A stretch of DNA of 64,000 bases from an uncultured Lentimicrobiaceae bacterium (GCA_964420555.1 CAYQTT010000005.1:232326-296325); one strand, 5' to 3'. Counted from the first letter of the stretch, positions 779-55,834 are shown. Numbers and translations are program-made. Notes: generated by a model from the sequence alone, not told the origin.

Positions 779-1095
779 TGCAGGAGAATATTCCGCGGTA
801 AATCAGTGTATTCCAGTTACATGAAAAGTACTTAATCGTGTCGTATAAGATGGAGTGTGCAGATGGCTATATTCCTGTGTCATCTGATTGGAAATCCAAA
901 TCAGAGACTTTATAATTAATACCAGATTGAACTATACAGCAGCTCAATTAAAATTGGTATAAATCACTACTTCGGTACTTTTACCCTGCTGAATTAAGCT
1001 GGATTTTATGGTGGTTGTATAGTTTTGTTACCAATACTTTTATTTAACCATTTAACTGATCGAAAATTAAAGTTATAAGAGTAGAGACCAGTTTA

Positions 1096-2355: not shown

Positions 2356-4169
2356 TTGTTCAGCAGGTTTGTTTCAATCATTCTGGTTTCAAGGTCTTTA
2401 CGACTAATTTTACGGGTAATATATTTTTCAATCAATAAGGTTGCAATAGGAGCCGCGTAAGTAGAACCAAAACCTGCATTTTCTACAATAACACAGATAG
2501 CAATTTTGGGATTTTCAACTGGTGCGAAAGCAATAAAATTTGAATGCGGTTTGCCGTGAGGGTTGTCAGCAGTTCCTGTTTTTCCGGCCATAGTAATACT
2601 GTCTAATTTCCAGGCTCTGGCTGTTCCGTGCGAGCCTTCAAAAACTTCAATCATTCCATCACGCACAACCTGAATGTATTCATCGTCAATAGTAGTAACC
2701 TGCTTTTGCGAAGAGAATCTGGTTTTGTTTTTTTCATTTGAAACAGAACGCACCACGTGGGGTGGATAGAAGAAGCCTCCGTTAGCAACGATTGATGCGT
2801 AATTAACAAGTTGAAGCGGAGTAGTAAGAACTTCGCCCTGTCCGATGGACAATGAGCGGATTGTCATTGCATTCCAACGACCTTTACCGTATATTTTATC
2901 GAAAACTTCGGAGGATGGGAGGTTCCCTTTCAATTCGAAAGCAAGGTCAGTTTCCAGAGTGCGGCCAAACCCCATACTCATCATGTGGCCACGCCAAACT
3001 TCGTAGCGTTCTTTTACCGTTTGATAATTAGGATCATTCATAATTGCCCTGAAAACCTGCCAGTGAAAAGGATTGCACGATTGCTGAATAGCAGTGTAAA
3101 CATCAAGCGGCGACACATGGCTATGCGTACATCTGATAGGCGATGAGCCTGGCCCCTGGCATGTATAGCGTGTTTCTTTGGTTATTACTCCCATTTGCAA
3201 GCCAACCATATCAGTAGCCATTTTAAACGTAGAGCCGGGAGGATATTGCCCCATAATTGCACGGTTATACAAAGGTTTAATGGGATCTGAATTCAGCCGG
3301 GCATAATTTTTACCCCTGACCCTTCCGACCAACAGATTAGGGTCGTATCCCGGTGTTGACAGAAAACAAAGTATTTCGCCAGTTGACGGATCAATTGCAA
3401 CTATACTTCCGCGTTTATTTGCCATCAGTTTTTCGCCGTATTCCTGCAGATCGGCATCAATTCCGGTGTAAAGATCGTTGCCCATTACCGAAGCTGTATC
3501 GTAACGGCCATTTTCAAAACTTCCTACGTCGCGGTTAAAAACATCAACCATCCGGATTTTTAATCCTTTTATTCCGCGAAGCTCTGTTTCATATGCCCTT
3601 TCAATTCCACTTATACCAATATAATCACCTTGTTTGTAATAAGGTTTTTTTTCGACCTGTGATGGGGTTACCTCACCAATATACCCAAGCAGGTGTGCGC
3701 CGATTGACATAGGGTATTTTCGCAATGTACGGGGCTGAACAAAAAATCCCCGGTAGCGGTATAGTTTCTCTTCGATATATCCGAATGTTTCTTTCGAAAT
3801 TTGCTTTTCGAAAGCCGATGCCAGCATAGGTGAATAATCGCGCGCTTTCTTCATCCGCTCAGCAAAGCCCTCGGGGGTTATATCGAGTAAGCGGCATATT
3901 TCGGCAGTATCAATATCTTTAACCTGGCGCGGAATTACCATTAAATCGTAAACAGCCTCATTGTAAACAAGTAATTTTCCGTTGCGGTCGTAAATTAATC
4001 CACGGGCTGGAAACTGGGTAACATAGCGCAAAACATTGTTATTAGCGGAAAGCGTGTAACTCCTGTCTATAACCTGTATGTAAAACAGACGTACCAGATA
4101 AATAAATCCAATAATCAGAAATGTGCTGATAATCACTATTTTACGATCGGCATAAATGCGACTGGCCAT
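2352..4169 (-). CDS. mrdA: Penicillin-binding protein 2 (class B transpeptidase)
   Basis: Single N-terminal TM helix, SxxK motif (GSTFKM) and KTG motif (GKTGTA). Start re-called to MASRIY (ATG at 4169) because a TATTTTTG -7 box lies at 4220-4227, inside the longer ORF-track version (start 4244). Confidence 0.85.
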   Translation of the reverse strand: MASRIYADRKIVIISTFLIIGFIYLVRLFYIQVIDRSYTLSANNNVLRYVTQFPARGLIYDRNGKLLVYNEAVYDLMVIPRQVKDIDTAEICRLLDITPEGFAERMKKARDYSPMLASAFEKQISKETFGYIEEKLYRYRGFFVQPRTLRKYPMSIGAHLLGYIGEVTPSQVEKKPYYKQGDYIGISGIERAYETELRGIKGLKIRMVDVFNRDVGSFENGRYDTASVMGNDLYTGIDADLQEYGEKLMANKRGSIVAIDPSTGEILCFLSTPGYDPNLLVGRVRGKNYARLNSDPIKPLYNRAIMGQYPPGSTFKMATDMVGLQMGVITKETRYTCQGPGSSPIRCTHSHVSPLDVYTAIQQSCNPFHWQVFRAIMNDPNYQTVKERYEVWRGHMMSMGFGRTLETDLAFELKGNLPSSEVFDKIYGKGRWNAMTIRSLSIGQGEVLTTPLQLVNYASIVANGGFFYPPHVVRSVSNEKNKTRFSSQKQVTTIDDEYIQVVRDGMIEVFEGSHGTARAWKLDSITMAGKTGTADNPHGKPHSNFIAFAPVENPKIAICVIVENAGFGSTYAAPIATLLIEKYITRKISRKDLETRMIETNLLNN

Positions 4170-4219
4170 TGAAGAAAATAAATTGAGCGCTAAACAGTTA
4201 AAGATGGTGATTAGGTATG

Positions 4220-4227
4220 CAAAAATA
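4220..4227 (-). promoter_or_regulatory. Bacteroidota -7 box TAnnTTTG (TATTTTTG) for mrdA-rodA
   Basis: Exact motif match 51 nt upstream of the ATG at 4169. Confidence 0.4.
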
Positions 4228-4401
4228 CAGAATACACCATTCAAATATTGTATTATCCGAATATAATTATCGGTGCTTTAAAGAATATTTCCATCATGCT
4301 TTCAAGACATAAAAGCTGAGGTAAATTAACCTGATCACGCTAAATCGGAAAGGAATTTTATCTCAAAATTTTACTTATTAATGTTTTGTAACAAAATAAT
4401 G

Positions 4402-4409
4402 TATATTTG
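4402..4409 (+). promoter_or_regulatory. Bacteroidota -7 box TAnnTTTG (TATATTTG) for the tnaA leader
   Basis: Exact motif match about 148 nt upstream of the tnaA ATG and 35 nt upstream of a 21-codon uORF. Confidence 0.4.
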
Positions 4410-4556
4410 GCACTTCAGAATGGGGTAAACTACATCTTGCATCATGTCGGGAATCAGGAAATTTATATTCAGGAATATTAAAAGACGCGATGAATTCGAG
4501 TCTTTATAACTATTTGAATTATAAAATCTTAATTTCCTATTTAATACAATTAGAAC

Positions 4557-5933
4557 ATGGAATTACCTTTTGCAGAACCTTACAGGATAAAAATGGTGGA
4601 GTCCATCCACCCAAGTACCCGCGAACAACGCGAACAATGGATAAAAAAAACCGGTTACAACTTATTTAATCTTCGCAGCGATCAGGTTTTTATCGACCTG
4701 CTGACCGATTCGGGCACCGGTGCCATGAGCGACAAACAATGGAGTGAAATGATGCTCGGCGACGAAAGCTATGCCGGTGCTTCATCCTATTATAAACTGA
4801 AATCAGCTATTAAGGAATTGCTGGGTTTCGAATATTTTCTGCCTACACATCAGGGCCGCGCTGCCGAAAATGTGCTCTTCAGCGCATTGGTAAAAGAAGG
4901 AAACGTTGTTCCTGGAAATTCACACTTCGATACAACCAAAGGACATATTGAATTCCGCAAGGCAACAGCTATCGATTGTACTATCGATGAGGCATTTGAT
5001 ACAACCATCAACCATCCCTTCAAGGGAAATATCGACCTCGGTAAACTGGAAGATGTTCTGAAAAAATATCCCAGGGCGCAAGTTCCTATGATTATCGTTA
5101 CTATTACCTGCAACTCATCAGGTGGTCAGCCGGTTTCGATGGCTAATATCAAGGACGTGAAGCAACTAGCTCAGAAATACAATGTCCCTGTTATTTTCGA
5201 TTCTGCACGTTTTGCTGAGAACGCTTATTTTATAAAAATACGCGAAGACGGCCAGCAGGACCGCAGCATTCGCGAAATTGTAGCCGAAATGTTTTCCTAC
5301 GCCGATGGCATGACCATGAGCAGCAAGAAAGACGCTATAGTTAATATTGGCGGTTTTATTGCGCTTCGCGATCCTGAACTTCATCGCCAGGCTTCCGTAT
5401 TCAATATTATGTTCGAAGGTTTTCTTACTTACGGCGGACTTGCAGGGCGCGATCTGAATGCCATGGCCCAGGGTTTGTATGAAGCTACTGAATTTGAATA
5501 CCTGAAATCACGCGTAGGGCAGGTAGCTTTGCTTGGGAGCAAACTTACCGGGTTTGGTGTTCCTGTTCAGCAACCCTATGGCGGACATGCCATATTTGTT
5601 GATGCAAGCAAAGTGCTTTCGCATATGCCTAAAGAGCATTTCAGGGCACAAACACTGGCTGTAGAACTGTATCTCGAAGCAGGGGTAAGGGGTGTCGAAA
5701 TAGGCGCTATTATGGCCGACCGCGATCCGGTAACCCGCGAAAACCGTTATCCGGCACTCGAATTGCTCAGGCTTGCCATTCCGCGCCGCACATATACCAA
5801 CGACCATATGAACTATGTGGCAGTTGCGATGGGTAATGTTTACGAACGCCGCCACGAGATTAAAACCGGACTGTCTATCGAGCAGGAAGCACCCATCCTC
5901 AGGCATTTTACGGTTAAGCTGCAGAAAATTTAA
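4557..5933 (+). CDS. tnaA: Tryptophanase (beta-eliminating lyase, PLP-dependent)
   Basis: 458 aa. FDTTKGH and DSARFAENAYFIK match tryptophanase rather than tyrosine phenol-lyase. PLP-lysine context is SSKKDAIVNIGG, and the C-terminus is LRHFTVKL. Confidence 0.85.
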   Translation: MELPFAEPYRIKMVESIHPSTREQREQWIKKTGYNLFNLRSDQVFIDLLTDSGTGAMSDKQWSEMMLGDESYAGASSYYKLKSAIKELLGFEYFLPTHQGRAAENVLFSALVKEGNVVPGNSHFDTTKGHIEFRKATAIDCTIDEAFDTTINHPFKGNIDLGKLEDVLKKYPRAQVPMIIVTITCNSSGGQPVSMANIKDVKQLAQKYNVPVIFDSARFAENAYFIKIREDGQQDRSIREIVAEMFSYADGMTMSSKKDAIVNIGGFIALRDPELHRQASVFNIMFEGFLTYGGLAGRDLNAMAQGLYEATEFEYLKSRVGQVALLGSKLTGFGVPVQQPYGGHAIFVDASKVLSHMPKEHFRAQTLAVELYLEAGVRGVEIGAIMADRDPVTRENRYPALELLRLAIPRRTYTNDHMNYVAVAMGNVYERRHEIKTGLSIEQEAPILRHFTVKLQKI

Positions 5934-9185: not shown

Positions 9186-10253
9186 ATGAATCGCACTTTA
9201 CTTGTCCTCCTGGTAATAACCATTTTTGCAACGTCCAAAGCTCAGCCACCACAAGGGTATTATAATCCGGCAGCTGGAAAAACAGGAACAGCTTTGCAAC
9301 AGGCACTTCACGATATAATTGACAACCACACTTCGGTTTCTTATAATTCGTTGTGGACACATTTTAAAACAACTGATAAAAAACCAAACGGAAAGGTTTG
9401 GGATATGTATTCAGATATCCCGGGTGGCACTCCTCCGTATGAATTTACTTTTGTTAATGATCAGTGCGGGAGTTACAGTGGTGAAAGCGATTGTTACAAC
9501 CGCGAACATTCATGGCCTAAAAGCTGGTTTAACGATAACCTCCCGATGAATACGGATATGTTCCATTTGGTTCCTACGGATGGATATGTGAACGGAAAAC
9601 GTTCGAATTATCCGTTTGGTAAGGTAGGTGCCGCATCGTGGACTTCTTTGAATGGTTCAAAACTAGGCAGTTGCATTACGCCGGGATATACTGGCGTTGT
9701 GTTCGAACCTCGCGATGAATACAAAGGCGACTTTGCCCGTAACTATTTCTACATGGCTACGCGTTACTACAACGAGGACAGCGGCTGGCCCGGAAGCGAT
9801 ATGGTAACAGGCTCGCAGTTTAAACCCTGGGCAAAAGCAATGCTTCTTATCTGGGCGCAGACTGATCCTGTTTCACAAAAGGAAATTGACAGGAACAATG
9901 CCATTTACAACATTCAGAATAACCGCAACCCGTTTATCGACCATCCCGAATATGCCAACAGTATCTGGGGAACCAATACAGGTATTTTTGATGAGCAAGC
10001 GCAGATAGCATTACAGGTTTATCCTAATCCGGCATCTTCCGTATGCACAATTACCCTTCCTCCGGAGTTCAATCAACAAAACTATACTTTTACTGTTTAT
10101 TCATCAACTGGTTTACCGGTACAAACCAATCTTACAGTTACCGGCGATAAGGCCAGTATGAATGTGGAGGATTTACCTTCAGGATTTTACCTTATACGGC
10201 TTGCTTTGAATGATTACAAAACACTTTACCAGGCAAGGATTATCAGGAAGTAA
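9186..10253 (+). CDS. Extracellular endonuclease I family nuclease with a T9SS C-terminal sorting domain
   Basis: Signal peptide. Endonuclease_1 motifs are YNREHSWPKSWF, DMFHLVPTDGYVNGKRSNYPFG and NRNPFIDHPEYA. C-terminal domain is LQVYPNPASS...RIIRK. Confidence 0.8.
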   Translation: MNRTLLVLLVITIFATSKAQPPQGYYNPAAGKTGTALQQALHDIIDNHTSVSYNSLWTHFKTTDKKPNGKVWDMYSDIPGGTPPYEFTFVNDQCGSYSGESDCYNREHSWPKSWFNDNLPMNTDMFHLVPTDGYVNGKRSNYPFGKVGAASWTSLNGSKLGSCITPGYTGVVFEPRDEYKGDFARNYFYMATRYYNEDSGWPGSDMVTGSQFKPWAKAMLLIWAQTDPVSQKEIDRNNAIYNIQNNRNPFIDHPEYANSIWGTNTGIFDEQAQIALQVYPNPASSVCTITLPPEFNQQNYTFTVYSSTGLPVQTNLTVTGDKASMNVEDLPSGFYLIRLALNDYKTLYQARIIRK

Positions 10254-10361
10254 TAGTTTCAGGAATTATGAAGCGATTTCTTTCATTTCAAAAGCATTTG
10301 ATTCAGATCAGAAATAATCAGCTTCTGCAAGAAATAACTACAAATAATTAAAATCTACTTC

Positions 10362-10823
10362 GTGCAAATCATCCGACTTACCAAGGAATTTAAATTTGAA
10401 ATGGCCCATGCACTGAAAGGGTATGATGGACTGTGCCGTAATATCCACGGGCATTCGTATGAGCTTTTGGTTACAGTAACAGGTATCCCTGTTTCGGAAA
10501 CATCATCAACAAAGCTTGGAATGGTTATGGATTTTGGCGATCTGAAGAAAATTGTGCGTAAGTGTATTGTGGATGAATTTGATCATGCCCTGGTGTTGAA
10601 TCGAGAATCGGCATCTGATTTTACACCGGATGCAGAAATGTTTGGGCGGACAATACTGGTCGATTACCAGCCTACCAGCGAAAATATGCTAATCGATTTT
10701 GTTGAAAGACTACGAAGCCAGCTTCCTGCTAATGTAAAATTGCATCATCTGCTGCTCCGCGAAACTGTTACCTCCTACGCAGAATGGTTTGCTGGGGATA
10801 ATGAAACAATTTCGAATGTATGA
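10362..10823 (+). CDS. queD: 6-carboxy-5,6,7,8-tetrahydropterin synthase (6-pyruvoyl-tetrahydropterin synthase family)
   Basis: 153 aa with a GTG start. KEFKFEMAHAL and CRNIHGHSYEL are the zinc-ligand / catalytic Cys-His context. No other que genes are adjacent. Confidence 0.75.
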   Translation: MQIIRLTKEFKFEMAHALKGYDGLCRNIHGHSYELLVTVTGIPVSETSSTKLGMVMDFGDLKKIVRKCIVDEFDHALVLNRESASDFTPDAEMFGRTILVDYQPTSENMLIDFVERLRSQLPANVKLHHLLLRETVTSYAEWFAGDNETISNV

Positions 10824-10937
10824 TTTCGCATGTTGGATATTGATTTTCCACAAATGTATTTAAGATTCTAAATGTTTCAACGATCATGAATACCCGCATT
10901 TTTTAAAGCGTTTGTAGGACACCGAAATTTATCGTTT

Positions 10938-11552
10938 CTAACATGGAATGGTTTGTTTATCGATTTTTTGTCCGATAAGTTTTATGATATTTATTATGCA
11001 TTTTAGTTCTGGTATATGAGTATAAGCCCTTGAAAATGATGCAGGACACTGATAATTTATCCTTTTATAGCTATTTTCAGATATGAATTCAAAAGTATAA
11101 GTTTCGCCATCCATTATTTTAACTGTTGATCGACTACCGTCAATATTTCTGATAAAGAACTGGTGTTTTAATGATTCCATGTCTGGTAATTCTAGTATTT
11201 TATTGTCATTAAAATACGTCCACATTGAATCACAGTCAGTTATGTGTATTTTATGTTTTATTATTTTGTATTCATTCAACGGAATGAACTTCTTCGTAAC
11301 TTTCTCTTCTAATGTGTAGTATTCACAGGACCATTTGCCGTTTTTTTGTGACATAACAAACAAGTCTTGAGAGTAGGGTATAGTATTCCCTTTGTGTATC
11401 CAGAATCGAAGTTGAAAGTTAAAGTTTGTATTAAATTTCTTTATGTTGCCTATCATTTCCGGATAAAGGCAATTTGAATTTGTTTCAACGACATTTTGAC
11501 AAAAGCATAGTGAAAAAGTCAAAACGAGTAATACTGTTATAAGTATCTTCAT
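10938..11552 (-). CDS. Hypothetical secreted protein
   Basis: 204 aa with an N-terminal signal peptide (MKILITVLLVLTFSLCFCQ). AT-rich, with no recognisable motifs. Confidence 0.5.
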   Translation of the reverse strand: MKILITVLLVLTFSLCFCQNVVETNSNCLYPEMIGNIKKFNTNFNFQLRFWIHKGNTIPYSQDLFVMSQKNGKWSCEYYTLEEKVTKKFIPLNEYKIIKHKIHITDCDSMWTYFNDNKILELPDMESLKHQFFIRNIDGSRSTVKIMDGETYTFEFISENSYKRINYQCPASFSRAYTHIPELKCIINIIKLIGQKIDKQTIPC

Positions 11553-11567
11553 GATATGTTGTATGTC

Positions 11568-11650
11568 TCTTCACTATTCGTTTTCATGGCCCATAGCTCC
11601 ACTTTCGCTTCGCTCTAGCTTTTCACTTTTCACTATTCACTTTTCACTCA
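11568..11650. repeat. Short-period tandem-repeat tract (heptad CTTTTCA / CTATTCA)
   Basis: The sequence cttcactattc...agcttttcacttttcactattcacttttcactca overlaps the udk stop codon at 11648-11650. Confidence 0.7.
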
Positions 11651-12265
11651 ATCCCCCGAGTCCAGCTTCATTTTAATCCTCGAAGCCAGGATATCAATAG
11701 CTACTTTATTTTCGCCACCCTGCGGCACAATAATATCTGCATTTCGTTTTGTAGGTTCTATAAACTGAAGGTGCATTGGCTTTACCCAACGGCTGTAATG
11801 CTCCAGTACTTTCATAGGATCACGGCCACGCTCAACGGTATCGCGCCTTATAATCCGCATCAGCCTTTCGTCACTTTCGGCATCCACATATACTTTTATA
11901 TCGAGTCGCTTCACTAATTGCACGTCGCTGTATATCAAAATACCTTCAATAATTATCACTTTCCGCGGTTCAATGGTTACGGTTTCCTTCAGCCTTGCAC
12001 AATCGATATAGGAATACACCGGCATTTCGATACTCTCCCCGTTACGAAGTGCATCTATATGTTTAACCAAAAGGTCCCATTCGATTGAATTTGGATGGTC
12101 GAAATTAATACGGAGTTTTTCTTCCTGTGTAAGATGCCCGTTATCCCAATAATAGGCATCCTGTGGAATTACGGCAACCGAATTTTTGGGTAAACGTTTA
12201 ATGATTTCGCGTACAACCGTAGTTTTACCGCATCCCGAGCCACCGGCAATTCCAATAATAAGCAT
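11648..12265 (-). CDS. udk: Uridine kinase
   Basis: 205 aa with P-loop IGIAGGSGCGKTT and collinear Udk family blocks. Confidence 0.9.
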   Translation of the reverse strand: MLIIGIAGGSGCGKTTVVREIIKRLPKNSVAVIPQDAYYWDNGHLTQEEKLRINFDHPNSIEWDLLVKHIDALRNGESIEMPVYSYIDCARLKETVTIEPRKVIIIEGILIYSDVQLVKRLDIKVYVDAESDERLMRIIRRDTVERGRDPMKVLEHYSRWVKPMHLQFIEPTKRNADIIVPQGGENKVAIDILASRIKMKLDSGD

Positions 12266-12317
12266 GTTATGAGTCGATTAAAAGTGTTTTACTAAGGGAT
12301 AATTGATTTGTAAAAGT

Positions 12318-12342
12318 AAAAAAAGCCCCGGATTTTCGGAGC
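12318..12342 (-). terminator. Candidate rho-independent terminator of the mmd operon
   Basis: On the minus-strand RNA, GCUCCG-aaaauc-CGGGGC (one G-U pair) is followed by U7. It lies about 95 nt after the mmdB stop. Confidence 0.45.
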
Positions 12343-12436
12343 TTTCTTTCTGATTTATTCTGATCAGATAGACCTTGGCATTTACCGGCAAACGGTTTAC
12401 TTCAGGTTACTGAATTGTGTGAGTTTTTCTTGCTTT

Positions 12437-13630
12437 TTAAAACAGGAAGCTAAGCATAATACCGGCTGCTACCGCACTTCCAATTACGCCTGCTACGTTT
12501 GGACCCATAGCATGCATCAGCAGGTGATTGGTTTTGTCATATTCGAGCCCGACAACCTGCGAAACGCGGGCACTATCGGGTACTGCTGACACACCGGCAT
12601 TGCCAATCAGCGGATTTACCTTATTGCCTTCTTTCAGGAAAATGTTCATGATTTTTACAAACATTACACCACCAAAAGTTGCTACTATAAATGAACATGC
12701 ACCCAATGCGAAAATACCTACTGATTTTGCAGTAAGGAATGTTGTTGCCTGGGTTGATGCTCCTACCGTTATTCCGATAAGAATGGTTACAATATCGATC
12801 ATTGGGCCTTTGGCTGTGTCAGCCAAACGTTTTGTAACCGTGCTTTCTTTTAGCAGGTTACCAAAAAACAACATGCCTAACAAGGGCAAGCCCGACGGAA
12901 CAATAAAACACGTAAGCAACAAACCGATAATCGGAAATAGAATCTTTTCGAGTTTCGAAACAGTACGCGGTGGTTTCATGCGGATAACCCGTTCCTTTTT
13001 AGTAGTAAGCAAACGCATAACCGGAGGTTGAATAACAGGTACCAGTGCCATATAAGAGTATGCAGATACAGCAATAGCTCCTACAAGCTCAGGCGCAAGT
13101 TTCGATGACAGGAAAATAGCCGTTGGCCCGTCAGCACCGCCAATAATCCCGATTGCGCCTGCTTCAGCAGGGCTGAATCCCAGAGCAAGAGCAGCAGCAT
13201 AAGCACCAAAAATACCTAACTGCGCAGCTGCGCCAATAAGCATTAGTTTTGGATTGGATATCAGGGCAGAGAAATCTGTCATGGCACCAATTCCAAGGAA
13301 TATTAATGGTGGATAAATACCGTAAATCACACCAAAATACAAGTAGTTCATTACACTGCCACTTTGGTAGATACCTATCTGGAGGTTACTTGGGTCGCTG
13401 TTCAAAATATGTTCAGCTCCCCAAAAAGGAATATTGCCAATGAGTATTCCAAACCCGATCGGAATCAACAGCATTGGCTCATATTCTTTGGCAATCGCGA
13501 GATAAATAAATACTAATCCGATTAAAATCATCACAACATGCCCCATCGTAAAGTTGTAGAATGCCGTGTATCCCATAAACTGGAATAAGTGATCGGATAA
13601 GAAAGTCCAAAAGTTTCCGGATGTTTCCAT
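12437..13630 (-). CDS. mmdB: Na+-translocating decarboxylase beta subunit (OadB/MmdB/GcdB family)
   Basis: 397 aa polytopic membrane protein with the OAD_beta family pattern. It is the last gene of the decarboxylase operon. Confidence 0.8.
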   Translation of the reverse strand: METSGNFWTFLSDHLFQFMGYTAFYNFTMGHVVMILIGLVFIYLAIAKEYEPMLLIPIGFGILIGNIPFWGAEHILNSDPSNLQIGIYQSGSVMNYLYFGVIYGIYPPLIFLGIGAMTDFSALISNPKLMLIGAAAQLGIFGAYAAALALGFSPAEAGAIGIIGGADGPTAIFLSSKLAPELVGAIAVSAYSYMALVPVIQPPVMRLLTTKKERVIRMKPPRTVSKLEKILFPIIGLLLTCFIVPSGLPLLGMLFFGNLLKESTVTKRLADTAKGPMIDIVTILIGITVGASTQATTFLTAKSVGIFALGACSFIVATFGGVMFVKIMNIFLKEGNKVNPLIGNAGVSAVPDSARVSQVVGLEYDKTNHLLMHAMGPNVAGVIGSAVAAGIMLSFLF

Positions 13631-49627: not shown

Positions 49628-50095
49628 TTACTTATCTTCCTCAACATTGTTTGAATTAATCCATCGGATAAATAATTTATATCCAAGTGACATAACAATA
49701 GCGCCGGTAAACAGACCAATAAACCCTGAAAAGATGAACCCGCCAATTACACCGATAAATATTACCAACATAGGCACCGGTGCACCCTGTCCAAGCAGAA
49801 TGGGTTTAAGTACATTGTCGGACAAGCCAGCCAACAAAAGCAATACAGTCCACAAGATTGCCGGCAATACTTCCTTCACAGCAAACAAATAAACTATGAT
49901 AGGCAGAGTTACAATGAACAATGGAATCTGTAGTATGCCCTAAATAAATACAATCAAAGTCCATATCCCTGCATACGGAACACCTGCCAGCAGTAATACA
50001 ATTCCGTTCAATACAATTCTTAAGGCTACATCTATTGAAACTTCCCTGATGCTTTACTCCCAAGATAATTCAATCCATTTTCAAAGTTATATTCA
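49628..50095 (-). pseudogene. AI-2E (PerM/TqsA) family transporter remnant: C-terminal third only, with an in-frame TAG and a probable frameshift
   Basis: The 97-aa ORF (…NVLKPILLGQGAPVPMLVIFIGVIGG…) continues upstream in frame as …LLLAGVPYAGIWTLIVFI*GILQIPLF. The TAG is at 49940-49942. Further upstream the similarity moves to another frame and then stops. About 200 N-terminal codons are absent. Confidence 0.6.
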
Positions 50096-50110
50096 GTAAC
50101 ATGCGCTCAC

Positions 50111-50140
50111 AAAAAAAAAGACTGTCAGTATCGACAGCCT
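50111..50140 (-). terminator. Rho-independent terminator
   Basis: GGCTGTC / GACAGTC stem of 7 bp followed by U9 on the minus strand, 40 nt after the stop at 50180. Confidence 0.65.
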
Positions 50141-50179
50141 TTTTGTAAAAGTGGCATCAGCCTGATTAATTGCGGAAGT

Positions 50180-50842
50180 TTATGTAATTTCTACTGATCC
50201 GGCATATACCGTGTTTGAAACCGCTTCGCGGGCATTGGATGAAGTTTTCCCGTCAAGTGAAACAAGGAATAGCAGCACTTCGGCAGTACGACTGCTCCAC
50301 TCTGCAGGAAGGTTCAGTATTACTGTTGCCTGGTTTCGTGATGCGCAGCCCGGGAAGGAAAGTACTTCCCCGGAAGCTTGGTCAGTAAGACTAACAATCA
50401 ACTGGTCGCTTTCGCTGGCATATGCTGCCTGAGTGTTATCAGCCCAGTTTAAGGTTACCGAAGCAGGCGCATCAGAAAGAACAGCAACTCCGGTGAGTGT
50501 TGCTAAGTTTCCCATGCTGATCCTTACTTTGCTGAAATCAATGCTCAGATCGGGGAATTCGCCGGCAATTGCATTTGCCAGGTTATACGACATGGCGGCA
50601 TTGCTGCTCGTCATATCTTTTGCATATGCTTTGAAGCCTATGCGGATTAAATTACGGTGCGCCTGGTTAAAGCGCCCGACCAATCCGAAACGTGCCCGCT
50701 GTTTTTGCTGATTTTCGGAATTGGGGTTCGATACTACGGCAGGGCGGATTCTCATCACTTCCTTGCCTTTCCAGTTTGAGCCGACCACGTTTCCGATCCG
50801 GCCCTGGAATCCTCCAAGGATTCCTTTTTTAAAGGTTGCCAT
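50180..50842 (-). CDS. Hypothetical protein resembling the Bacteroidota DUF6266 family
   Basis: 220 aa from the ATG at 50842 (MATFKKGILGGFQGRIGNVVGSNWKGKEVMRIRP...). No signal peptide or TM helix. The family assignment is from memory of the N-terminal pattern only. Confidence 0.4.
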   Translation of the reverse strand: MATFKKGILGGFQGRIGNVVGSNWKGKEVMRIRPAVVSNPNSENQQKQRARFGLVGRFNQAHRNLIRIGFKAYAKDMTSSNAAMSYNLANAIAGEFPDLSIDFSKVRISMGNLATLTGVAVLSDAPASVTLNWADNTQAAYASESDQLIVSLTDQASGEVLSFPGCASRNQATVILNLPAEWSSRTAEVLLFLVSLDGKTSSNAREAVSNTVYAGSVEIT

Positions 50843-50965
50843 TAGGCATGTCAATTTTTACCTTGCAGCAACATTGCCGCAATTGCATCATGTATTACAA
50901 TAATCCTGCAACCAGCTTTTTTTCGAAATTATAGATGTATATTGCTTTCAACTGCATAATGCTGT

Positions 50966-50994
50966 CACTGACACAGATTTTGTGACACTGACAC
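50966..50994. promoter_or_regulatory. Direct 9-mer repeat CACTGACAC x2 at exactly 20-nt spacing
   Basis: Copies at 50966-50974 and 50986-50994, in the divergent spacer between the DUF6266-like gene and the first HTH gene. An embedded TGTCAC/GTGACA inverted pair is present. Confidence 0.35.
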
Positions 50995-51390
50995 CTTAGT
51001 GTAATATACGGCAAACGGTTACTACTCCAGTCATAATGTCAGTCAGTGGCTGAAGACAGACCAATCAATAACTCAGATAGGTTTTTAATAGGAATCATGA
51101 TATAGGTATGATATTTCATTTTCGGGCAAATAACATTAAGTATCGGATAAAAATAATGAAAATATAGGTTGGATAGCTATGTCGAAAATGCATCATTCGA
51201 TTTCTGAAACAGGTAAAATATTTTCATCATTTACCACGATTATTTGAGTAAAAATTAGAAAAAGTAAACCTACAGAATAAGTGACCGAAAACAGCATTTC
51301 TGAATGGCAAAAAAAATAATTTCCCAAAAAATCAAATATCAATTTTGAAGAATCCAGCATTTACAGGGCTTGCAGCGATTTTGGGAGAAA

Positions 51391-51431
51391 TGTCCTTTAC
51401 TAACGGATTTTTTTTATATTAATTAGCGGGT
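51391..51431 (+). promoter_or_regulatory. Conserved upstream block TGTCCTTT-N17-ATATTAATTAGCGGGT (copy 1)
   Basis: The same two blocks occur with identical 25-nt register at 52244-52284, at a similar distance to the ATG (74 vs 72 nt). TTGCAGCG lies further upstream in both copies. Confidence 0.5.
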
Positions 51432-51489
51432 GTTTAATCTGGCCTAAAATCGATTTTTCAAATCGGGCGGGCTGCAAAAAAGTACACCC

Positions 51490-51885
51490 ATGAACAATAA
51501 CAAATCAGTACAGGAAACGCTGAATTCAGTTCTTTCATCTGACGCAATTTATGAACTCTGCCAACTTGATCAACTTATCCGGACAAATCCGGAGCATCAA
51601 ATTTATTCAAGGCTCAGAGAAATGATTTCGGATAGCGAAGTTTTGACTTTGGTGTTCAAGTTTGCACAAAATCATCCTTCAGGGAAACGGAAATTTATTT
51701 TTGCCGGTTATCTCAGCAGTAAGGAAGTTATGAATGCCCTGGGCGTTTCAAAACGAAAGTTAGCCGAATGGAGAAATGCAGGTTTACTTCCGGCTAAAGT
51801 ATTTGGGAATACATTTTATTATTCTGTCAACGACCTTGTAATAATGTTGGAGCGGTATTACACAGGTAAAGCTGCAGGAATTTAA
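51490..51885 (+). CDS. Excisionase/MerR-type helix-turn-helix (HTH_17-like) protein with a unique N-terminal half
   Basis: 131 aa. The C-terminal part is YLSSKEVMNALGVSKRKLAEWRNAGLLPAKVFGNTFYYSVNDLVIMLER. Confidence 0.6.
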   Translation: MNNNKSVQETLNSVLSSDAIYELCQLDQLIRTNPEHQIYSRLREMISDSEVLTLVFKFAQNHPSGKRKFIFAGYLSSKEVMNALGVSKRKLAEWRNAGLLPAKVFGNTFYYSVNDLVIMLERYYTGKAAGI

Positions 51886-52243
51886 ATCCATTTTGTTGAA
51901 CGGAAATAAACCGGACAAATAGGCAGTTTTAAATGTAAGTATTCGGAAATCTCATTGAATTCTGTTGTTAACAGTTCTAAATGGGATTTTCTGATACCGG
52001 ATTCAAATTTGTAATAGTATGTGATTTATGCTGATTCCCAGAATACTGTTTTTATTAAGAAAAACAGACTACAAGGTAAGAATATAATTATTAATATCAA
52101 CCCATATCCGGAGTTAGTTTTTAAAATCAGAAACGTCAAAGTTTACTAGCATTTTCATTTACACAATGGCATTGTGCGCATATGTAAATGGTCGTAAATT
52201 GTTATTTGATTGATTTGCAGCGCAATATACTACTCAAAATATT

Positions 52244-52284
52244 TGTCCTTTTTATTTGAAAATTTTGCATATTAATTAGCAGGT
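52244..52284 (+). promoter_or_regulatory. Conserved upstream block TGTCCTTT-N17-ATATTAATTAGCAGGT (copy 2)
   Basis: See copy 1 at 51391-51431. Confidence 0.5.
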
Positions 52285-52340
52285 CTTTTTTGACAAAAGA
52301 TGATGGGTTTTTCCATCGGACATTTTAAAAAAACCTGAAC

Positions 52341-52736
52341 ATGACAAACCAAGATTTTAAGCCAGAATTTCACTCAACACCTGACACTGCATCAGTAAAT
52401 GATAACTTGTCAGCTTTCCTGCTCGAATACCGGGATACTGTAGTACCTGATGCCCAAAACGGTAATGATAAACCGGCTAAAGTGGCCGGGGAGATTAGCA
52501 GGCTAAATGAAATTCTGCTTGAGCTTAGGACTCAACAGGAGCAGTCGGTAATGCCCGGCTGGCTCACAAGCGAACAAGTACAAAGTTTTCTTAACTTAAA
52601 AGAGCGTTCACTCCGGACGTTGCGAAAATCAGGCAAACTTCCCAGCTCGCAAGTCGGTCAAAAGTTCTTTTACCGAAAAGAGGATGTAGATTTGCTTCTT
52701 AACGAAGCTGCACTTCATAAGCAATCGGGAGATTAG
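52341..52736 (+). CDS. Excisionase/MerR-type helix-turn-helix (HTH_17-like) protein, paralogous in its C-terminal half to 51490-51885
   Basis: 131 aa. The C-terminal part is WLTSEQVQSFLNLKERSLRTLRKSGKLPSSQVGQKFFYRKEDVDLLLNE. Confidence 0.6.
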   Translation: MTNQDFKPEFHSTPDTASVNDNLSAFLLEYRDTVVPDAQNGNDKPAKVAGEISRLNEILLELRTQQEQSVMPGWLTSEQVQSFLNLKERSLRTLRKSGKLPSSQVGQKFFYRKEDVDLLLNEAALHKQSGD

Positions 52737-52847
52737 AGTAAATTACGTTAATTCATTCTTCAGGCAAGATTGAGGTGGCCGTCATCGTGGTATACTTTAT
52801 ACGGATACTCCGGTTATTTGTGCGCCCCTGTTTAATTAAAAATCGGA

Positions 52848-52897
52848 CAGCTTCAGCTCCGTATCAGCTCCGTATCAAGTCCGTATCAAGTCCGAAG
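52848..52897. repeat. 11-nt tandem repeat x4 (CAGCTCCGTAT x2, CAAGTCCGTAT, CAAGTCCGAAG)
   Basis: Read directly from the sequence, about 110 nt after the second HTH gene. Confidence 0.75.
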
Positions 52898-53056
52898 AAA
52901 AGGATCCGGGTTTTATCCGGAATATAGTGTTGGTTAAGGGGCAACCCAGACTTAGTTTCTTATACTGACAGTAGTCTCAAATCACCCGCCATTACCAGGG
53001 TGCTCAGTCCATTTGCTTAATTCAATTATTTACTATCTTGCATCAAAATTATTCCC

Positions 53057-55834
53057 ATGGCTTTAGGCTGGAACGAAGTTAAAGAACGTGCGGTACATTT
53101 CTCGAAAGAATGGGAAAATGCCTTTAATGAAGAAGCAGATTCGAAGCAGTTTCTTATTGAATTTTTTAATGTATTCGGCATCAGTAACCGCAGGGTAGCC
53201 ACATTCGAGCATAGAGTAAAAAAACTCGGCGATGCCGATGGGTATATCGACCTGCTTTGGAAAGGCACCATGCTGGTTGAAATGAAAAGTCGCGGTAAAA
53301 ATCTTGATAAAGCGTATCAACAATCCATAGATTATACACACTGGTTGAAAGAAGTTGAGTTGCCTAAATATATATTAGTTTCCGACTTCGCCAATTTCCG
53401 GCTTTACGACCTCGACGAAAACCAACGGTACGATTTCGCCCTTGCCGACCTGGTAAGCCATGTGCAATTGTTTGGTTTTATTGCCGGATATCAAAAACGC
53501 ACCTACAAAGAGGAAGATCCTGTAAATATTGAAGCGGCTTACCATATGGGTATTCTGCACGATGCACTGAAAGAGGCCGGATACACGGGCCGCAACCTCG
53601 AAGTATATTTAGTGCGCCTGTTGTTCTGCCTTTTTGCCGATGATACCGGGATATTTGAACGCAGTATTTTTATTGATTACCTGCAACAGAAAACCAACAC
53701 CGATGGCTCGGACCTGGGTATGCATCTCGCTCAATTGTTCCAGGTGTTGAATACTCCGAATGGAATGCGCCAGAAAACGCTGGATGAAAGCCTGGCAGCT
53801 TTTCCTTACATCAACGGGCATTTATTTGAGCAACAATTGCCTTTTGCTTCGTTTAACAGCAGGATGCGTTCAACTTTGATGCAATGCTCCACGCTCGACT
53901 GGAATAAAATTTCGCCTGCCATATTCGGCAGTATGTTCCAAAGTGTGATGAATGAAACTGAACGCCGTAACCTTGGCGCACATTATACTTCGGAGAAAAA
54001 TATACTGAAACTGATAAAGCCGCTTTTCCTCGATACGCTTTGGCAGGAATTTGCAGTGGCCAAAACCAGTTCCGGTAAACTAAAAGCGTTTCATAAAAAG
54101 ATAGCTTCCTTACGTTTTCTTGACCCGGCTTGCGGTTGCGGCAACTTTTTAGTAATTACCTACCGCGAGCTGCGGCTTCTCGAACTATCCATTTTAAAAG
54201 AGTTGCAGCGCGGACAAAGGGTTTCGGATATTTCGGCACTGGTGCTTTGCGATGTGGATCGCTTTTACGGTATTGAATACGAAGAATTTCCGGCACAGAT
54301 AGCACAAGTTGCGTTATGGCTTACCGACCACCAGTTGAATATGCAGGTTTCGGCTGAGTTTGGCGAATATTTTGTGCGCCTGCCGCTGGTAAAATCGGCT
54401 AAGATTACGCATGGCAATGCGTTGCGAACCGACTGGGGTAGCCTGGTGGAGCCTTTGCCATGGGAAAACTCAACAAGGTTCGATTATATTTTGGGAAATC
54501 CTCCATTTGTGGGACATCATTTTCAAGATGCTTCACAAAAAAGTGATATGAATTTAGTGTTTACTAAGGTAAATGGAGCTGGAGTACTTGATTACGTTTC
54601 CGCATGGTACATAAAAGCTGCCATCTACCTTCAAGAAAACAATATCGAAGAAAACAGTCTGGACCTTAAAACATGTGTAGCCTTTGTTTCGACTAATTCA
54701 ATCGCACAAGGTGAACAGGTAGGTTTATTATGGACTGAATTATTTAATAGGTATAAATTAAAAATACATTTTGCGCACCACACCTTCAAATGGGGTAACG
54801 AAGCTCGCGCAAATGCTGCCGTACATGTTGTAATTATAGGTTTTTCGAATTTCAATATTGCTGAAAAGCGAATTTTTGAATACGAGAATATTAGTGGCGA
54901 ACCACATGAATTGAAAGTAAAAAATATTAATCCTTATCTGTTTGAAGGGCGAGACTTATATGTTATTAATCGTAAAGAGCCTTTATGTAATGTCCCAAAG
55001 ATGATTTGGGGTAATAAGCCAACTGATGGAGGTAATTTTATTTTTAATACTCAGCAAGATTATTTAGACTTCATTGCGAAAGAACCGCTCGCAGAAAAGT
55101 GGATTCATCCATACTTTGGAGGAGAAGATTTTTTGCACAATAAAATCCGAAAATGTTTATGGTTAAGAGATATCAAACCTGATGAATTGAATTTATTGCC
55201 TCATGTTTTAAAAAGAATTGAACAAGTCAAAATAATGCGTCTGAATAGCAAAGCAGAAGCAACACGTAAAAAATCAGAAACGCCATATTTATTTGCTCAG
55301 GTTTCTCAACCCAATTCACAGTTTTTAGCTATTCCAGAAGTTTCTTCAGAGCGCAGGAAGTAAATACCTATAGCTTTTTTCAGTAAAGAATTTATTGCTA
55401 GTAATACTGTTCAGTTAATTCCAAATGCAAACATTTTTCATTTTGGAATTGTCACATCATTGATGCACATGACATGGGTTAAATATGTTTGTGGTAGGCT
55501 TGAGAGCCGTTATCGATATTCAAATTCTATCGTCTACAACAACTTCCCCTGGCCCGAAAACCCAACGGATAAGCAAAAGGAAGCAATTGAAACGGCGGCG
55601 CAAAAGGTATTGGATGCGCGGGCGGAGTTTCCCGGAAGCAGCCTGGCCGATTTGTACAGCCCGCTAACCATGCCGCCCGCATTGGTAAAAGCGCATAACG
55701 AACTGGATAAAGCGGTTGATATGGCGTACCGTCCGCAGGCATTTGCAAATGAAACAAAACGGATTGAGTTTTTATTTGAGTTGTATGATAAATATACGGC
55801 GGGGTTGTTTGTGGCGCAGAAGAAGAAGCGATGA
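53057..55834 (+). pseudogene. MmeI-family type IIL restriction-modification enzyme (fused R-M-S) interrupted by one in-frame TAA
   Basis: N-terminal D...EXK nuclease region (DLLWKGTMLVEMKSRG). Methyltransferase motif I is FLDPACGCGNFL and motif IV is ILGNPPFVG. The sequence is collinear with MmeI as I recall it. TAA at 55361-55363 sits where the family has an aromatic residue (EVSSERRK*IPIAFF). The 124-aa ORF at 55460-55834 is in the same frame and carries the conserved RLESRYRYS..VYNNFPWP block. Confidence 0.8.

What the first reader, a model, noticed from the sequence alone, without database searches (positions are those of the whole stretch)
50111..52736. Uncharacterised three-gene module beside the RM gene: a DUF6266-like protein plus two paralogous HTH proteins with a duplicated regulatory architecture
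A 220-aa cytoplasmic protein of unknown function (MATFKKGILGGFQGRIGNVVGSNWKGKEVMRIRP...) is transcribed divergently from two 131-aa proteins. These two share only their C-terminal excisionase/MerR-type HTH (Y/WL(S/T)S.(E)V...L......L..(W/L)R..G.LP...(V)G....Y...D(L/V)..(M/L)L(E/N)). Their N-terminal halves are unrelated to each other. Each HTH gene sits behind its own non-coding leader of roughly 450-590 nt. Both leaders contain the same ordered blocks: TTGCAGCG, then TGTCCTTT-N17-ATATTAATTAGCRGGT with identical 25-nt register, 72-74 nt before the ATG. The divergent spacer also carries CACTGACAC twice, exactly 20 nt apart (two helical turns), and several TTGCAG words near the DUF6266-like start. 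The duplication of promoter-plus-HTH cassettes with swapped N-terminal domains, the absence of any recombinase, and the adjacency to a restriction enzyme make this a candidate regulatory or defence-associated module. It does not look like a simple excision function.
Basis: partly seen in the sequence, partly recalled or inferred. Interest (0 to 1): 0.55.

Follow-up and report, generated by a model that had tools for sequence, protein, structure and literature searches.

The report
DUF6266 plus two-HTH defence-island module
The three genes are a real, recurring Bacteroidota module (an unstudied DUF6266 protein facing two small Xis/BldC-type DNA-binding proteins) that usually sits at the edge of changeable anti-phage gene clusters; this makes it a likely regulatory marker of defence islands, though its biochemical role is unproven.

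Summary

The module recurs. DUF6266 faces one or two genes of one HTH_17 subfamily in 16 of 19 distinct loci of its clade. A tandem a/b pair occurs in 9 of them. In 15 of 18 assessable loci defence genes lie within 10 kb, nearly always just beyond the HTH genes. These include MmeI/Eco57I-type enzymes, type I RM, type I CRISPR-Cas and Argonaute.

One relative (L098) has the three genes and no cargo, so the trio can stand alone. A metagenome contig (L078) shares window 50110-53883 at 92% identity inside unrelated flanks, so the block moves. No recombinase, relaxase or tRNA lies nearby.

The HTH domains match BldC and Xis folds. DUF6266 has a disordered, conserved N-terminal arm, three helices and an FN3-like sandwich, and no characterised relative.

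In this window the MmeI cargo carries a TAA nonsense codon, and the island has truncated an AI-2E transporter gene.

Best reading: a regulatory anchor of a variable defence slot. Function is untested. No paper in the searched library mentions DUF6266.

The parts
49628..50075 (-). Left flank, not part of the module: the C-terminal remnant of an AI-2E family transporter gene. It is truncated at the island edge and carries an internal stop.
   Evidence: Pfam PF01594 matches only profile positions 240-323 of 327. The frame translation shows the remnant with an in-frame stop and no N-terminal part.
50110..50144 (-). Left end of the shared island, coinciding with the DUF6266 intrinsic terminator hairpin (50115-50144).
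   Evidence: The 92% identity to L078 begins exactly at 50110 and the flanks are unrelated. The terminator-like hairpin has 13 pairs followed by a T-run.
50180..50842 (-). DUF6266 gene (220 aa). It encodes a disordered but highly conserved Gly/Lys-rich N-terminal arm (residues 1-35), three helices (43-90) and an FN3-like beta-sandwich (117-218).
   Evidence: Pfam PF19781, E=4.8e-48. 116 homologue clusters. AF2 model pLDDT 83. Foldseek finds only FN3 domains. dN/dS 0.13 against L078.
50843..51048 (-). DUF6266 control region. It contains a 5'UTR hairpin (50863-50882), a TTGCAG word on the gene strand (50906-50911, resembling the end of a Bacteroidetes -7 box), CACTGACAC at 50966 and 50986, and an inverted TGTCAG copy at 51037-51048.
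   Evidence: exact pair. (ACTGACA found 4 times, 0.12 expected). (TGTCAG enriched 6.7-fold upstream of DUF6266 genes; the same TTTGCAC / TGTCAG palindrome / GTGCAAA / TTTGCAG layout in clade loci). Positions 50843-50915 are 98.6% identical to L078.
51143..51296 (.). Non-coding block of about 155 nt that is 100% identical to L078 inside an otherwise 90% identical spacer. Its function is unknown.
   Evidence: RNA folds of either strand are no better than shuffles.
51370..51431 (+). Promoter-proximal block of HTH17a: TTGCAGCG (51370-51377), TGTCCTTT (51391-51398), 17 nt, then ATATTAATTAGCGGGT (51416-51431).
   Evidence: Positions 51341-51489 are 98% identical to L078.
51490..51885 (+). HTH17a (131 aa): dissimilar helical N-terminal half plus a C-terminal Xis/MerR/BldC-type winged helix.
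   Evidence: PF12728, 35 bits. Own family HMM E=3e-22. Orthologues in the same proximal position in L078, L098 and L099. dN/dS 0.15.
52215..52284 (+). Promoter-proximal block of HTH17b: TTGCAGCG (52215-52222), TGTCCTTT (52244-52251), 17 nt, then ATATTAATTAGCAGGT (52269-52284). The GCAGGTCTTTTTTG continuation is also present upstream of an HTH17 gene in L023.
   Evidence: Alignment with L023, L027 and L013 leaders.
52341..52736 (+). HTH17b (131 aa): two low-confidence N-terminal helices plus a beta-alpha-alpha-beta-beta-alpha winged helix at residues 74-128.
   Evidence: PF12728, 39.7 bits. AF2 model. The domain superposes on BldC at 1.2-1.4 A over 49 residues and on phage Xis at 2.1 A. The family profile hits BldC 6AMK at E=5.4e-6.
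52853..52894 (+). Tandem array of four 11-nt units (TCAGCTCCGTA / TCAAGTCCGTA). It belongs to a generic Bacteroidota intergenic repeat family and is not a module-specific site.
   Evidence: The exact 26-mer occurs in 16 metagenome contigs in unrelated contexts.
53057..55834 (+). Cargo: an MmeI-family type IIG restriction-modification gene. It is one reading frame of about 925 codons interrupted by TAA at 55361-55363, so it is probably inactive.
   Evidence: Pfam MmeI_N, hel, Mtase, TRD and C domains. PADLOC REase_MTase_IIG E=9e-291. In-frame stop. The same split appears in two independent assemblies.

Best explanation
Window 50110 to about 55870 is a small genomic island. Its conserved core is a three-gene unit:
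- DUF6266, with its own terminator and an elaborate upstream control region.
- Two paralogous BldC/Xis-type HTH_17 proteins (a, then b), transcribed divergently from DUF6266, each behind a similar promoter block.

This unit is found across Bacteroidota at the edge of a variable slot. The slot usually holds anti-phage genes: type IIG, type I and other RM systems, type I CRISPR-Cas, Argonaute, and BREX next to Argonaute.

Inferred mechanism:
- The two HTH proteins are DNA-binding regulators. Like BldC or Xis, they would bind short repeated words as head-to-tail multimers.
- Candidate sites are their own TGTCCTTT-N17-ATATTAATTAGC blocks and the TGTCAG/TTGCA words of the DUF6266 control region.
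- Through these sites they would set expression of DUF6266, of themselves and of the downstream cargo.
- DUF6266 would be the module's non-DNA-binding partner. It is an FN3-fold protein whose conserved flexible N-terminal arm suggests it acts by binding another macromolecule.

Shown: gene content, recurrence, linkage to defence genes, movement between contexts, folds, purifying selection and conserved cis-words.
Inferred: DNA binding to these words, regulation, and any role in immunity.

In this genome the RM cargo is already inactivated.
For: Recurrence:
- An HTH17 subfamily gene lies divergent from DUF6266 in 16 of 19 distinct clade loci. A tandem pair occurs in 9 of them.
- The linkage is reciprocal. 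Every top-scoring long HTH17 hit that I looked up lies beside DUF6266 or at a contig end.

Defence genes near DUF6266 (within 10 kb in 15 of 18 assessable loci; beyond the HTH genes unless noted):
- MmeI in the window and L078.
- N6_N4 methyltransferase plus SLFN/AlbA in L009.
- Argonaute in L012, L024, L030 and L080.
- Type I CRISPR-Cas in L013, L028 and L081.
- Type IIG enzymes: in L023 beyond the HTH genes; in L027 on the far side of DUF6266.
- Type I RM in L032.
- EcoRI methylase and GmrSD in L029 and L031.
- UvrD-nuclease, methyltransferase and RhuM in L022, which has no HTH17 gene.

In more distant loci Argonaute lies within 10 kb of DUF6266 in three different gene orders, and next to BREX in L050.

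The trio is a unit distinct from the cargo:
- L098 has the trio without cargo and shares its downstream flank with L006, which lacks the HTH genes.
- Window and L078 share 50110-53883 at 92% identity inside unrelated flanks.
- dS is about 0.1 for DUF6266 and HTH17a but 0.86 for MmeI. dN/dS is 0.13-0.15 for the module genes.

DNA-binding class:
- The HTH profile matches BldC, RdfS and phage Xis, and the fold agrees.

Cis-elements:
- The promoter block is duplicated beyond chance. It is 94-98% conserved against L078, while distal spacer DNA is 86-90%.
- Part of it recurs in L023 although the HTH proteins there are only about 36% identical.
- The DUF6266 control region is conserved across the clade.
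Against: - No experiment exists, and no binding site has been mapped.
- Three clade loci (L006, L021, L022) have DUF6266 without an HTH17 gene.
- Most distant DUF6266 loci, such as the Saccharicrinis group, have other partners. The DUF6266-HTH17 tie is therefore clade-level, not family-wide.
- Defence genes cluster with each other in general, so linkage to them does not prove the module regulates them.
- The gaps of 100-380 nt between HTH17b and the cargo, together with the mosaic dS, suggest cargo may come with its own promoters.
- PADLOC and NCBIfam recognise none of the three genes as parts of known systems. The only hits are sub-threshold mad1 matches.
- The defence count rests on my own ORF calls and a limited number of Pfam/PADLOC scans, without a genome-wide null.
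Confidence: 0.45

Rival explanations
1. The two HTH_17 proteins are recombination directionality factors, analogous (from memory) to the tandem Xis2c/Xis2d pair of CTnDOT. They would serve an integrase-less island that is excised and integrated in trans by a tyrosine integrase encoded elsewhere. DUF6266 and the defence genes would then be passenger cargo.
For: - The HTH domain belongs to the Xis/RDF class: RdfS and Pukovnik Xis appear among the PDB matches, and PHROG 66 'excisionase' matches.
- The same block sits in unrelated flanks with a sharp left end at 50110.
- It truncated a host gene.
- Tandem pairs of small HTH_17 genes are typical of Bacteroidetes integrative elements (own knowledge).
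Against: - There is no integrase, relaxase, primase or transfer gene within +/-10 kb in the window or in any of about ten Pfam-annotated loci. The only related finding is an IS200-type gene in L013.
- No tRNA target is present.
- No terminal direct or inverted repeats were found around 50110 and 55870.
- The module persists, under purifying selection, in loci without any cargo.
- The right end of the island could not be mapped.
Confidence: 0.2
2. The trio is itself an immune or counter-immune system. DUF6266 would be the sensor or effector and the two HTH proteins its regulators. DUF6266 might be a domesticated protein of a small rolling-circle phage-like element.
For: - The trio stands alone in L098.
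- It lies consistently in defence islands and is tightly adjacent to Argonaute in three gene orders.
- An 8-kb GenBank phage record (OP209177.1) carries two to three DUF6266-like ORFs beside a G2P-type Rep.
- DUF6266 has a conserved control region and 5'UTR hairpin, which suggests tight regulation.
Against: - There is no PADLOC, NCBIfam or PHROG match.
- The model shows no enzymatic or pore-forming domain, only an FN3-like sandwich.
- No relatives turned up in IMG/VR pattern scans or in plasmids.
- The phage record is a single unverified metagenomic contig.
Confidence: 0.15
3. There is no functional unit. DUF6266 and generic mobile-element HTH genes simply accumulate in the same recombination-prone, poorly constrained regions as defence genes.
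For: - Defence islands are known sinks for accessory genes (general knowledge).
- The 11-nt repeat arrays that looked specific proved to be generic intergenic repeats.
- Pseudogenes are present on both sides: AI-2E and MmeI.
Against: - Orientation and order (DUF6266, then a, then b) are conserved across loci whose DUF6266 proteins are only 43-72% identical to the window's.
- Linkage is reciprocal.
- dN/dS is 0.13-0.15.
- Promoter blocks and the control region are conserved.
Confidence: 0.1

Closest known systems
BldC (Streptomyces) and phage/ICE excisionases (lambda-type Xis, Pukovnik Xis, RdfS)
   Same: The C-terminal 55 residues of both HTH proteins have the MerR-N/Xis winged-helix fold. The profile E-value to BldC is 5e-6, and the domain superposes on BldC at 1.2-1.4 A over 49 residues. 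From the titles of those PDB entries and my own knowledge, these proteins bind short direct repeats cooperatively. That would fit the repeated words in the three spacers.
   Different: The window proteins carry an extra helical N-terminal half of about 70 residues that varies between paralogues. They are not next to an integrase. They occur as a fixed a/b pair facing DUF6266. DNA binding is untested.
Xis2c/Xis2d tandem pair of Bacteroides CTnDOT (from memory; sequences not compared)
   Same: Both are pairs of small tandem HTH_17-type proteins in Bacteroidota. The CTnDOT pair acts both in excision and as transcription activators.
   Different: No IntDOT-like integrase, exc, mob or tra genes occur in any locus. 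Homology to Xis2c/Xis2d was not tested.
Defence-island hotspots and marker genes (for example recombinases used as bait, PMC13552941; core-gene-flanked hotspots in other phyla)
   Same: A conserved non-defence gene set sits beside a slot whose content changes between related genomes. The slot holds RM, CRISPR-Cas, Argonaute and BREX.
   Different: The marker here is neither a recombinase nor a housekeeping gene. It is an uncharacterised FN3-fold protein plus two dedicated HTH proteins, and the marker travels with the island.
MADS (mad1 HTH + mad2 MmeI-like methyltransferase ...)
   Same: A small HTH_17-type gene lies directly upstream of an MmeI-like methyltransferase. There are weak mad1 hits (PADLOC E=3.5e-5; NCBIfam 16.5 bits) and a mad2 hit on the MmeI protein.
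   Different: The mad1 scores are far below the NCBIfam cut-off of 80 bits. The large gene is a full MmeI-family type IIG enzyme (E=9e-291). No further MADS components (kinase, ATPase or nuclease genes, as I recall the system) are present.
Controller (C) proteins of RM systems
   Same: A small HTH gene with its own operator-like block precedes a restriction gene.
   Different: C proteins belong to the Xre/HTH_3 class and sit immediately upstream of, or overlapping, the R gene (own knowledge). Here the fold is Xis/MerR-like, the gap is 320 nt, there are two genes, and the same pair precedes CRISPR-Cas or nothing in other loci.

Membership tests
Pfam DUF6266 (PF19781) | Match to the family HMM above the gathering score over the full length | tested here: met
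   163.8 bits against 23.4; residues 12-204 match profile positions 2-194 of 198.
HTH_17 / excisionase-MerR winged helix (PF12728) | HMM match above the gathering score, and a beta-alpha-alpha-beta-beta-alpha fold | tested here: met
   35.0 and 39.7 bits against 27. AF2 secondary structure E74-76, H77-84, H88-97, E102-105, E108-112, H113-128. Superposes on BldC and Xis.
Recombination directionality factor (excisionase) of an integrative element | Encoded with, or next to, a cognate integrase inside an element bounded by att repeats | tested here: not met
   No integrase family appears in L001 or other annotated loci. No tRNA. No terminal repeats. A trans-acting integrase cannot be excluded.
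Recombination directionality factor (excisionase) of an integrative element | Stimulates excision in vivo or in vitro | not testable with these tools
   Needs experiments.
BldC-like transcription regulators | Cooperative head-to-tail binding to direct repeats in target promoters | not testable with these tools
   Only the fold and profile similarity and the presence of repeated words are shown.
Conjugative or mobilisable transposon of Bacteroidota (CTnDOT / NBU type) | Integrase plus relaxase/mobilisation or transfer genes in the element | tested here: not met
   None occurs within +/-10 kb in any Pfam-annotated locus. The large ORFs of the window outside the island read (by eye, not annotated) as ordinary chromosomal genes.
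MADS defence system | mad1 equivalog score reached, and the further mad genes present | tested here: not met
   NCBIfam MADS1 gives 16.5 bits against a cut-off of 80. The neighbour is a complete MmeI-type IIG gene, and no other mad genes are present.
MmeI-family type IIG restriction-modification enzyme (the cargo) | N-terminal nuclease, helical spacer, methyltransferase, TRD and C-terminal domains in one polypeptide | tested here: inconclusive
   All five Pfam domains are present and collinear, but they are split by a TAA at 55361-55363. This makes it a family member by descent that is probably not functional.
Integron-like cassette array | Integron integrase next to attI, with cassettes ending in attC sites | tested here: not met
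   There is no integrase. DUF6266 has no recombinase fold. No attC-like imperfect palindromes flank the HTH genes.
Known anti-phage systems in PADLOC-DB v2 | Any of the three proteins matches a system component | tested here: not met
   DUF6266 has no hit. The HTH proteins have only weak mad1 and Cas11a hits.

The most novel reading that the evidence does not exclude
DUF6266-HTH17a-HTH17b is an autonomous 'landing-pad and controller' for Bacteroidota immunity. On this reading, the module travels without a recombinase of its own, recruits interchangeable defence cassettes (Argonaute, CRISPR-Cas, RM, BREX) next to HTH17b, and switches them on through BldC-like filaments on repeated words. DUF6266 would be a domesticated protein of small rolling-circle phage-like elements that acts as the infection sensor or as an Argonaute partner.
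Probability: 0.12. Interest if true: 0.8.

Novelty: new variant of a known kind. Interest (0 to 1): 0.52.

Why it matters
- Bacteroidota are under-served by current defence-system catalogues. A compact, easily recognised marker (DUF6266 facing one or two members of a specific HTH_17 subfamily) that flags variable defence slots would be a practical bait for finding new systems in gut, rumen and sediment Bacteroidota.
- It would also give a concrete entry point to how defence islands are regulated in this phylum.
- The repeated adjacency of DUF6266, in three different gene orders, to long Argonaute genes is a testable lead for an unrecognised Argonaute accessory factor.
- If the module is only a passive passenger, the result still gives DUF6266 and DUF6617 a first genomic context. 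No paper in the searched library mentions either family.

Tried and rejected
1. 11-nt tandem arrays as module-specific iterons.
- They first looked 14-fold enriched upstream of DUF6266.
- The exact 26-mer then turned up in 16 metagenome contigs, 15 of them without DUF6266.
- Against an intergenic-only background the enrichment falls to 3.8-fold.
- Rejected as a specific component. They are a generic intergenic repeat family.

2. Structured RNA in the long leaders.
- No Rfam family reaches gathering score.
- The only sub-threshold hit is a chance Leu_leader match (25 bits against 50).
- The 100%-conserved block 51140-51300 folds no better than shuffles on either strand.

3. Consensus 5'UTR structure for DUF6266 across 14 loci. 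RNAalifold found none. Hairpins are seen only within subgroups.

4. Leaders as decayed DUF6617-like genes. tblastn found nothing.

5. DUF6266 as a phage or plasmid gene.
- No plasmid hit.
- No IMG/VR relatives in three pattern scans.
- No PHROG match.
- One 8-kb phage record only.

6. DUF6266 function from structure. Only FN3 domains match in PDB and BFVD. The profile finds nothing in PDB sequences.

7. ATTTGTCC as an enriched word. It is not enriched window-wide.

8. Sigma-70 promoter scan. It is no better than shuffles, as expected for Bacteroidota promoters.

9. Right end of the island. It could not be mapped. L078 ends inside MmeI, and no repeats mark the end.

10. First genome scan with the diverse alignment A1. 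It failed for lack of a conserved stretch and was redone with A2.


Full report
**1. What is in the window**

The three ORFs exist as described.
- The 220-aa protein (50180-50842, minus strand) is a full-length member of Pfam DUF6266 (E=4.8e-48).
- The two 131-aa proteins (51490-51885 and 52341-52736, plus strand) each carry one HTH_17 domain at residues 74-122.
- The two HTH proteins align only over their C-terminal 60 residues (29.5% identity).
- A 13-pair terminator hairpin follows DUF6266 at 50115-50144.

Downstream of the second HTH gene lies an MmeI-family type IIG gene with all five family domains.
- It is one frame of about 925 codons broken by a TAA at 55361-55363.
- The same split appears in two independent metagenome assemblies of this organism.

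On the other side, only the last ~140 codons of an AI-2E transporter gene remain, with an internal stop.

No tRNA, Rfam family or recombinase is present. Outside the island, the large ORFs of the window read (by eye, not annotated) as ordinary chromosomal genes.

**2. The sequence motifs**

The motifs are real and exceed chance.
- ATATTAATTAGCRGGT occurs twice exactly, 74 and 72 nt before the two ATGs (expected 0.1).
- Each copy is preceded at exactly 17 nt by TGTCCTTT, and further upstream by TTGCAGCG.
- The 26-nt core is 85% identical between the two leaders, although the proteins share under 30% identity.
- CACTGACAC occurs twice, 20 nt apart, and nowhere else in 64 kb. A third, inverted TGTCAG copy lies 50 nt away, and a fourth lies 90 nt upstream of MmeI.

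**3. The module recurs**

DUF6266 has 116 homologue clusters in the protein collection. I collected 58 genome loci plus metagenome loci from neighbourhood look-ups. I built an HMM of the HTH domain from these loci.

Among loci whose DUF6266 is at least ~42% identical to the window's:
- 16 of 19 distinct loci carry one or two genes of this HTH_17 subfamily transcribed divergently from DUF6266.
- 9 of them carry a tandem pair.
- In the closest relatives (L078, L098, L099) the proximal and distal genes are recognisable orthologues of HTH1 and HTH2, including their N-terminal halves.

The linkage is reciprocal. Every long, top-scoring hit of the HTH profile that I looked up lies next to DUF6266 or at a contig end.

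**4. What lies beyond the HTH genes differs from locus to locus and is mostly defence**

Cargo by locus (beyond the HTH genes unless noted):
- MmeI in the window and L078.
- A 1024-aa N6_N4 methyltransferase plus an SLFN/AlbA ATPase in L009.
- Argonaute in L012, L024, L030 and L080, preceded by a DUF6617-like gene.
- Type I CRISPR-Cas in L013, L028 and L081.
- Eco57I/MmeI-like enzymes: beyond the HTH genes in L023, but on the far side of DUF6266 in L027.
- A type I RM system in L032.
- EcoRI methylase and GmrSD in L029 and L031.
- A UvrD-nuclease, RadC, methyltransferase and RhuM set in L022, which has no HTH17 gene.

In more distant DUF6266 loci, Argonaute is again adjacent, in two further gene orders:
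- DUF6266 followed by a DUF6617-like/HTH fusion protein and then pAgo (L016).
- pAgo followed directly by DUF6266 in Bacteroides (L048, L050, L058). In L050, BREX PglZ and BrxL lie just upstream.

By my tally, 15 of 18 assessable clade loci have recognisable defence genes within 10 kb. I did not run a genome-wide null model.

**5. The trio is a unit distinct from its cargo, and it moves**

- L098 has DUF6266 and both HTH genes but no defence gene. Phosphate-transport genes follow instead.
- L098 shares its downstream flank with L006, which has DUF6266 alone.
- L078 is 92% identical to window 50110-53883. The identity starts exactly at the DUF6266 terminator, while the flanks are unrelated.

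Within the block shared with L078:

| Segment | dS | dN/dS |
|---|---|---|
| DUF6266 | 0.13 | 0.13 |
| HTH1 | 0.09 | 0.15 |
| MmeI (N-terminal part) | 0.86 | 0.03 |

So the cargo allele is much older than the shared module.

Non-coding conservation against L078 is uneven.
- The DUF6266-proximal 73 nt and the HTH promoter-proximal 150 nt are 94-99% identical.
- One 155-nt stretch (51143-51296) is 100% identical.
- Distal spacer DNA is 86-90% identical.

**6. What the proteins look like**

HTH proteins:
- The family profile finds BldC (6AMK, 6AMA), RdfS, a mycobacteriophage Xis and MerR-family N-domains in the PDB.
- The AF2 model of HTH2 has a confident winged helix at residues 74-128. It superposes on BldC at 1.2-1.4 A.
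- The same model has two low-confidence N-terminal helices.

DUF6266 (AF2 pLDDT 83):
- It has a disordered but most-conserved Gly/Lys-rich arm (residues 1-35), three helices and an FN3-like sandwich.
- Fold and profile searches return only generic FN3 domains.
- It has no PADLOC, NCBIfam or PHROG match.

One 8-kb GenBank phage record has two clear and one probable DUF6266-like ORFs next to a G2P-type rolling-circle Rep. I found no other viral or plasmid relatives.

**7. The control region of DUF6266 is conserved in the clade**

The layout runs in this order:
1. TTTGCAC words.
2. One or more TGTCAG / TGTCA-TGACA palindromes.
3. GTGCAAA words.
4. A TTTGCAG about 75 nt before the ATG. It resembles the end of the Bacteroidetes TAnnTTTG -7 box (own knowledge).
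5. A 5'UTR hairpin, whose loop is conserved within subgroups while the stems differ.

**8. Interpretation**

The best-supported reading is that the trio is a conserved regulatory anchor at the edge of a variable defence slot.
- The two Xis/BldC-type proteins would act as DNA-binding regulators of DUF6266, of themselves and possibly of the cargo.
- I give this reading 0.45.

Rivals:
- 0.2: the HTH pair are RDFs of an island mobilised in trans. This would explain the movement and the sharp end, but there is no integrase or att site.
- 0.15: the trio is itself an immune or counter-immune system.
- 0.1: coincidental accumulation.

None of the binding, regulation or phenotype steps has been tested.

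**9. Dead ends**

The 11-nt tandem array at 52853-52894 is a generic intergenic repeat.
- It is 100% identical over 28 nt to arrays in L012 and L080.
- Such arrays at first looked strongly enriched upstream of DUF6266.
- The exact 26-mer occurs in 16 unrelated metagenome contexts.
- The enrichment shrinks to 3.8-fold against intergenic background.

Also negative:
- There is no structured RNA in the leaders.
- There are no DUF6617 remnants in the leaders.
- The right end of the island could not be mapped.

**10. Novelty**

- No paper in the searched library mentions DUF6266 or DUF6617.
- The concept of marker genes for defence islands is established (for example PMC13552941), and the HTH fold is ordinary.
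- I therefore rate this a new variant of a known kind, of moderate interest.

Noticed in passing
window 53057-55834 (stop at 55361-55363): The MmeI-family type IIG gene is one frame of about 925 codons with a single TAA nonsense codon (ERRK*IPIAFF). The same split is seen in two independent assemblies, so the RM cargo is probably dead in this population.
   Followed up: partly
window 49628-50075: This is an AI-2E family transporter pseudogene. Only the C-terminal ~140 codons remain, with an internal stop, and it is cut off at the island's left end (50110).
   Followed up: partly
window 52853-52894; L082-L097; L006 9621-9770; L012 9653-9692: A family of 11-nt-period tandem repeats (units such as CAAGTCCGTAT), often paired with an inverted array to form long hairpins. 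They are scattered through intergenic regions of many Bacteroidota metagenome contigs beside unrelated genes. An exact 26-mer is shared by 16 contigs. The nature of the family (REP-like element, terminator or protein-binding site) is unknown.
   Followed up: partly
L077 (GenBank OP209177.1) 412-5290: An 8-kb 'phage' record encodes two clear and one probable DUF6266-like proteins (ORF1-3), then a Rep of the ORF2/G2P rolling-circle type and a PAPS reductase. DUF6266 may therefore derive from, or be shared with, a small ssDNA-type element.
   Followed up: partly
L012 5607-9523; L024 5625-9492; L030 5360-9562; L080 168-4084; L016 11004-14131: A recurrent operon runs DUF6617-like protein, then HTH_17, then long Argonaute. 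In L016 the first two are fused into one 356-aa protein. DUF6617 has no PADLOC or PHROG match, and no paper in the searched library mentions it.
   Followed up: partly
L048 6171-9079; L050 2841-10693; L058 9396-10669: In Bacteroides-type MAGs, Argonaute is followed directly by DUF6266 at the border of a conserved flank. In L050, BREX PglZ and BrxL lie immediately upstream. In L058 the Argonaute gene is truncated.
   Followed up: partly
L045, L047, L049, L052, L053, L059, L061, L062, L066 around 9600-12900: In Saccharicrinis and other Marinilabiliaceae genomes, DUF6266 sits in a different cassette: an 80-130-aa protein, then DUF6266, then a 395-433-aa protein with no Pfam, PADLOC or PHROG hit. 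Not every locus has all three genes. Up to three DUF6266 loci occur per genome, in unrelated contexts, often near polysaccharide or SusC/D loci.
   Followed up: no
window 51143-51296: This ~155-nt non-coding stretch is 100% identical to L078, while the neighbouring spacer is about 90% identical. It contains an inverted repeat (51151-51165 / 51218-51232) but has no significant RNA fold.
   Followed up: partly
window 53057-53881 vs L078 6464-7288: Divergence is mosaic. Synonymous divergence of the MmeI N-terminal part (dS 0.86) is about 7-10 times that of DUF6266 and HTH1 (0.09-0.13). This implies a recombination breakpoint between HTH2 and the cargo.
   Followed up: partly
L023 7338-10663: L023 has two DUF6266 paralogues, and the order of its a/b HTH genes looks swapped relative to the window. 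The leader of the L023 proximal HTH gene shares GCAGGTCTTTTTTG with the window's distal HTH2 leader.
   Followed up: no
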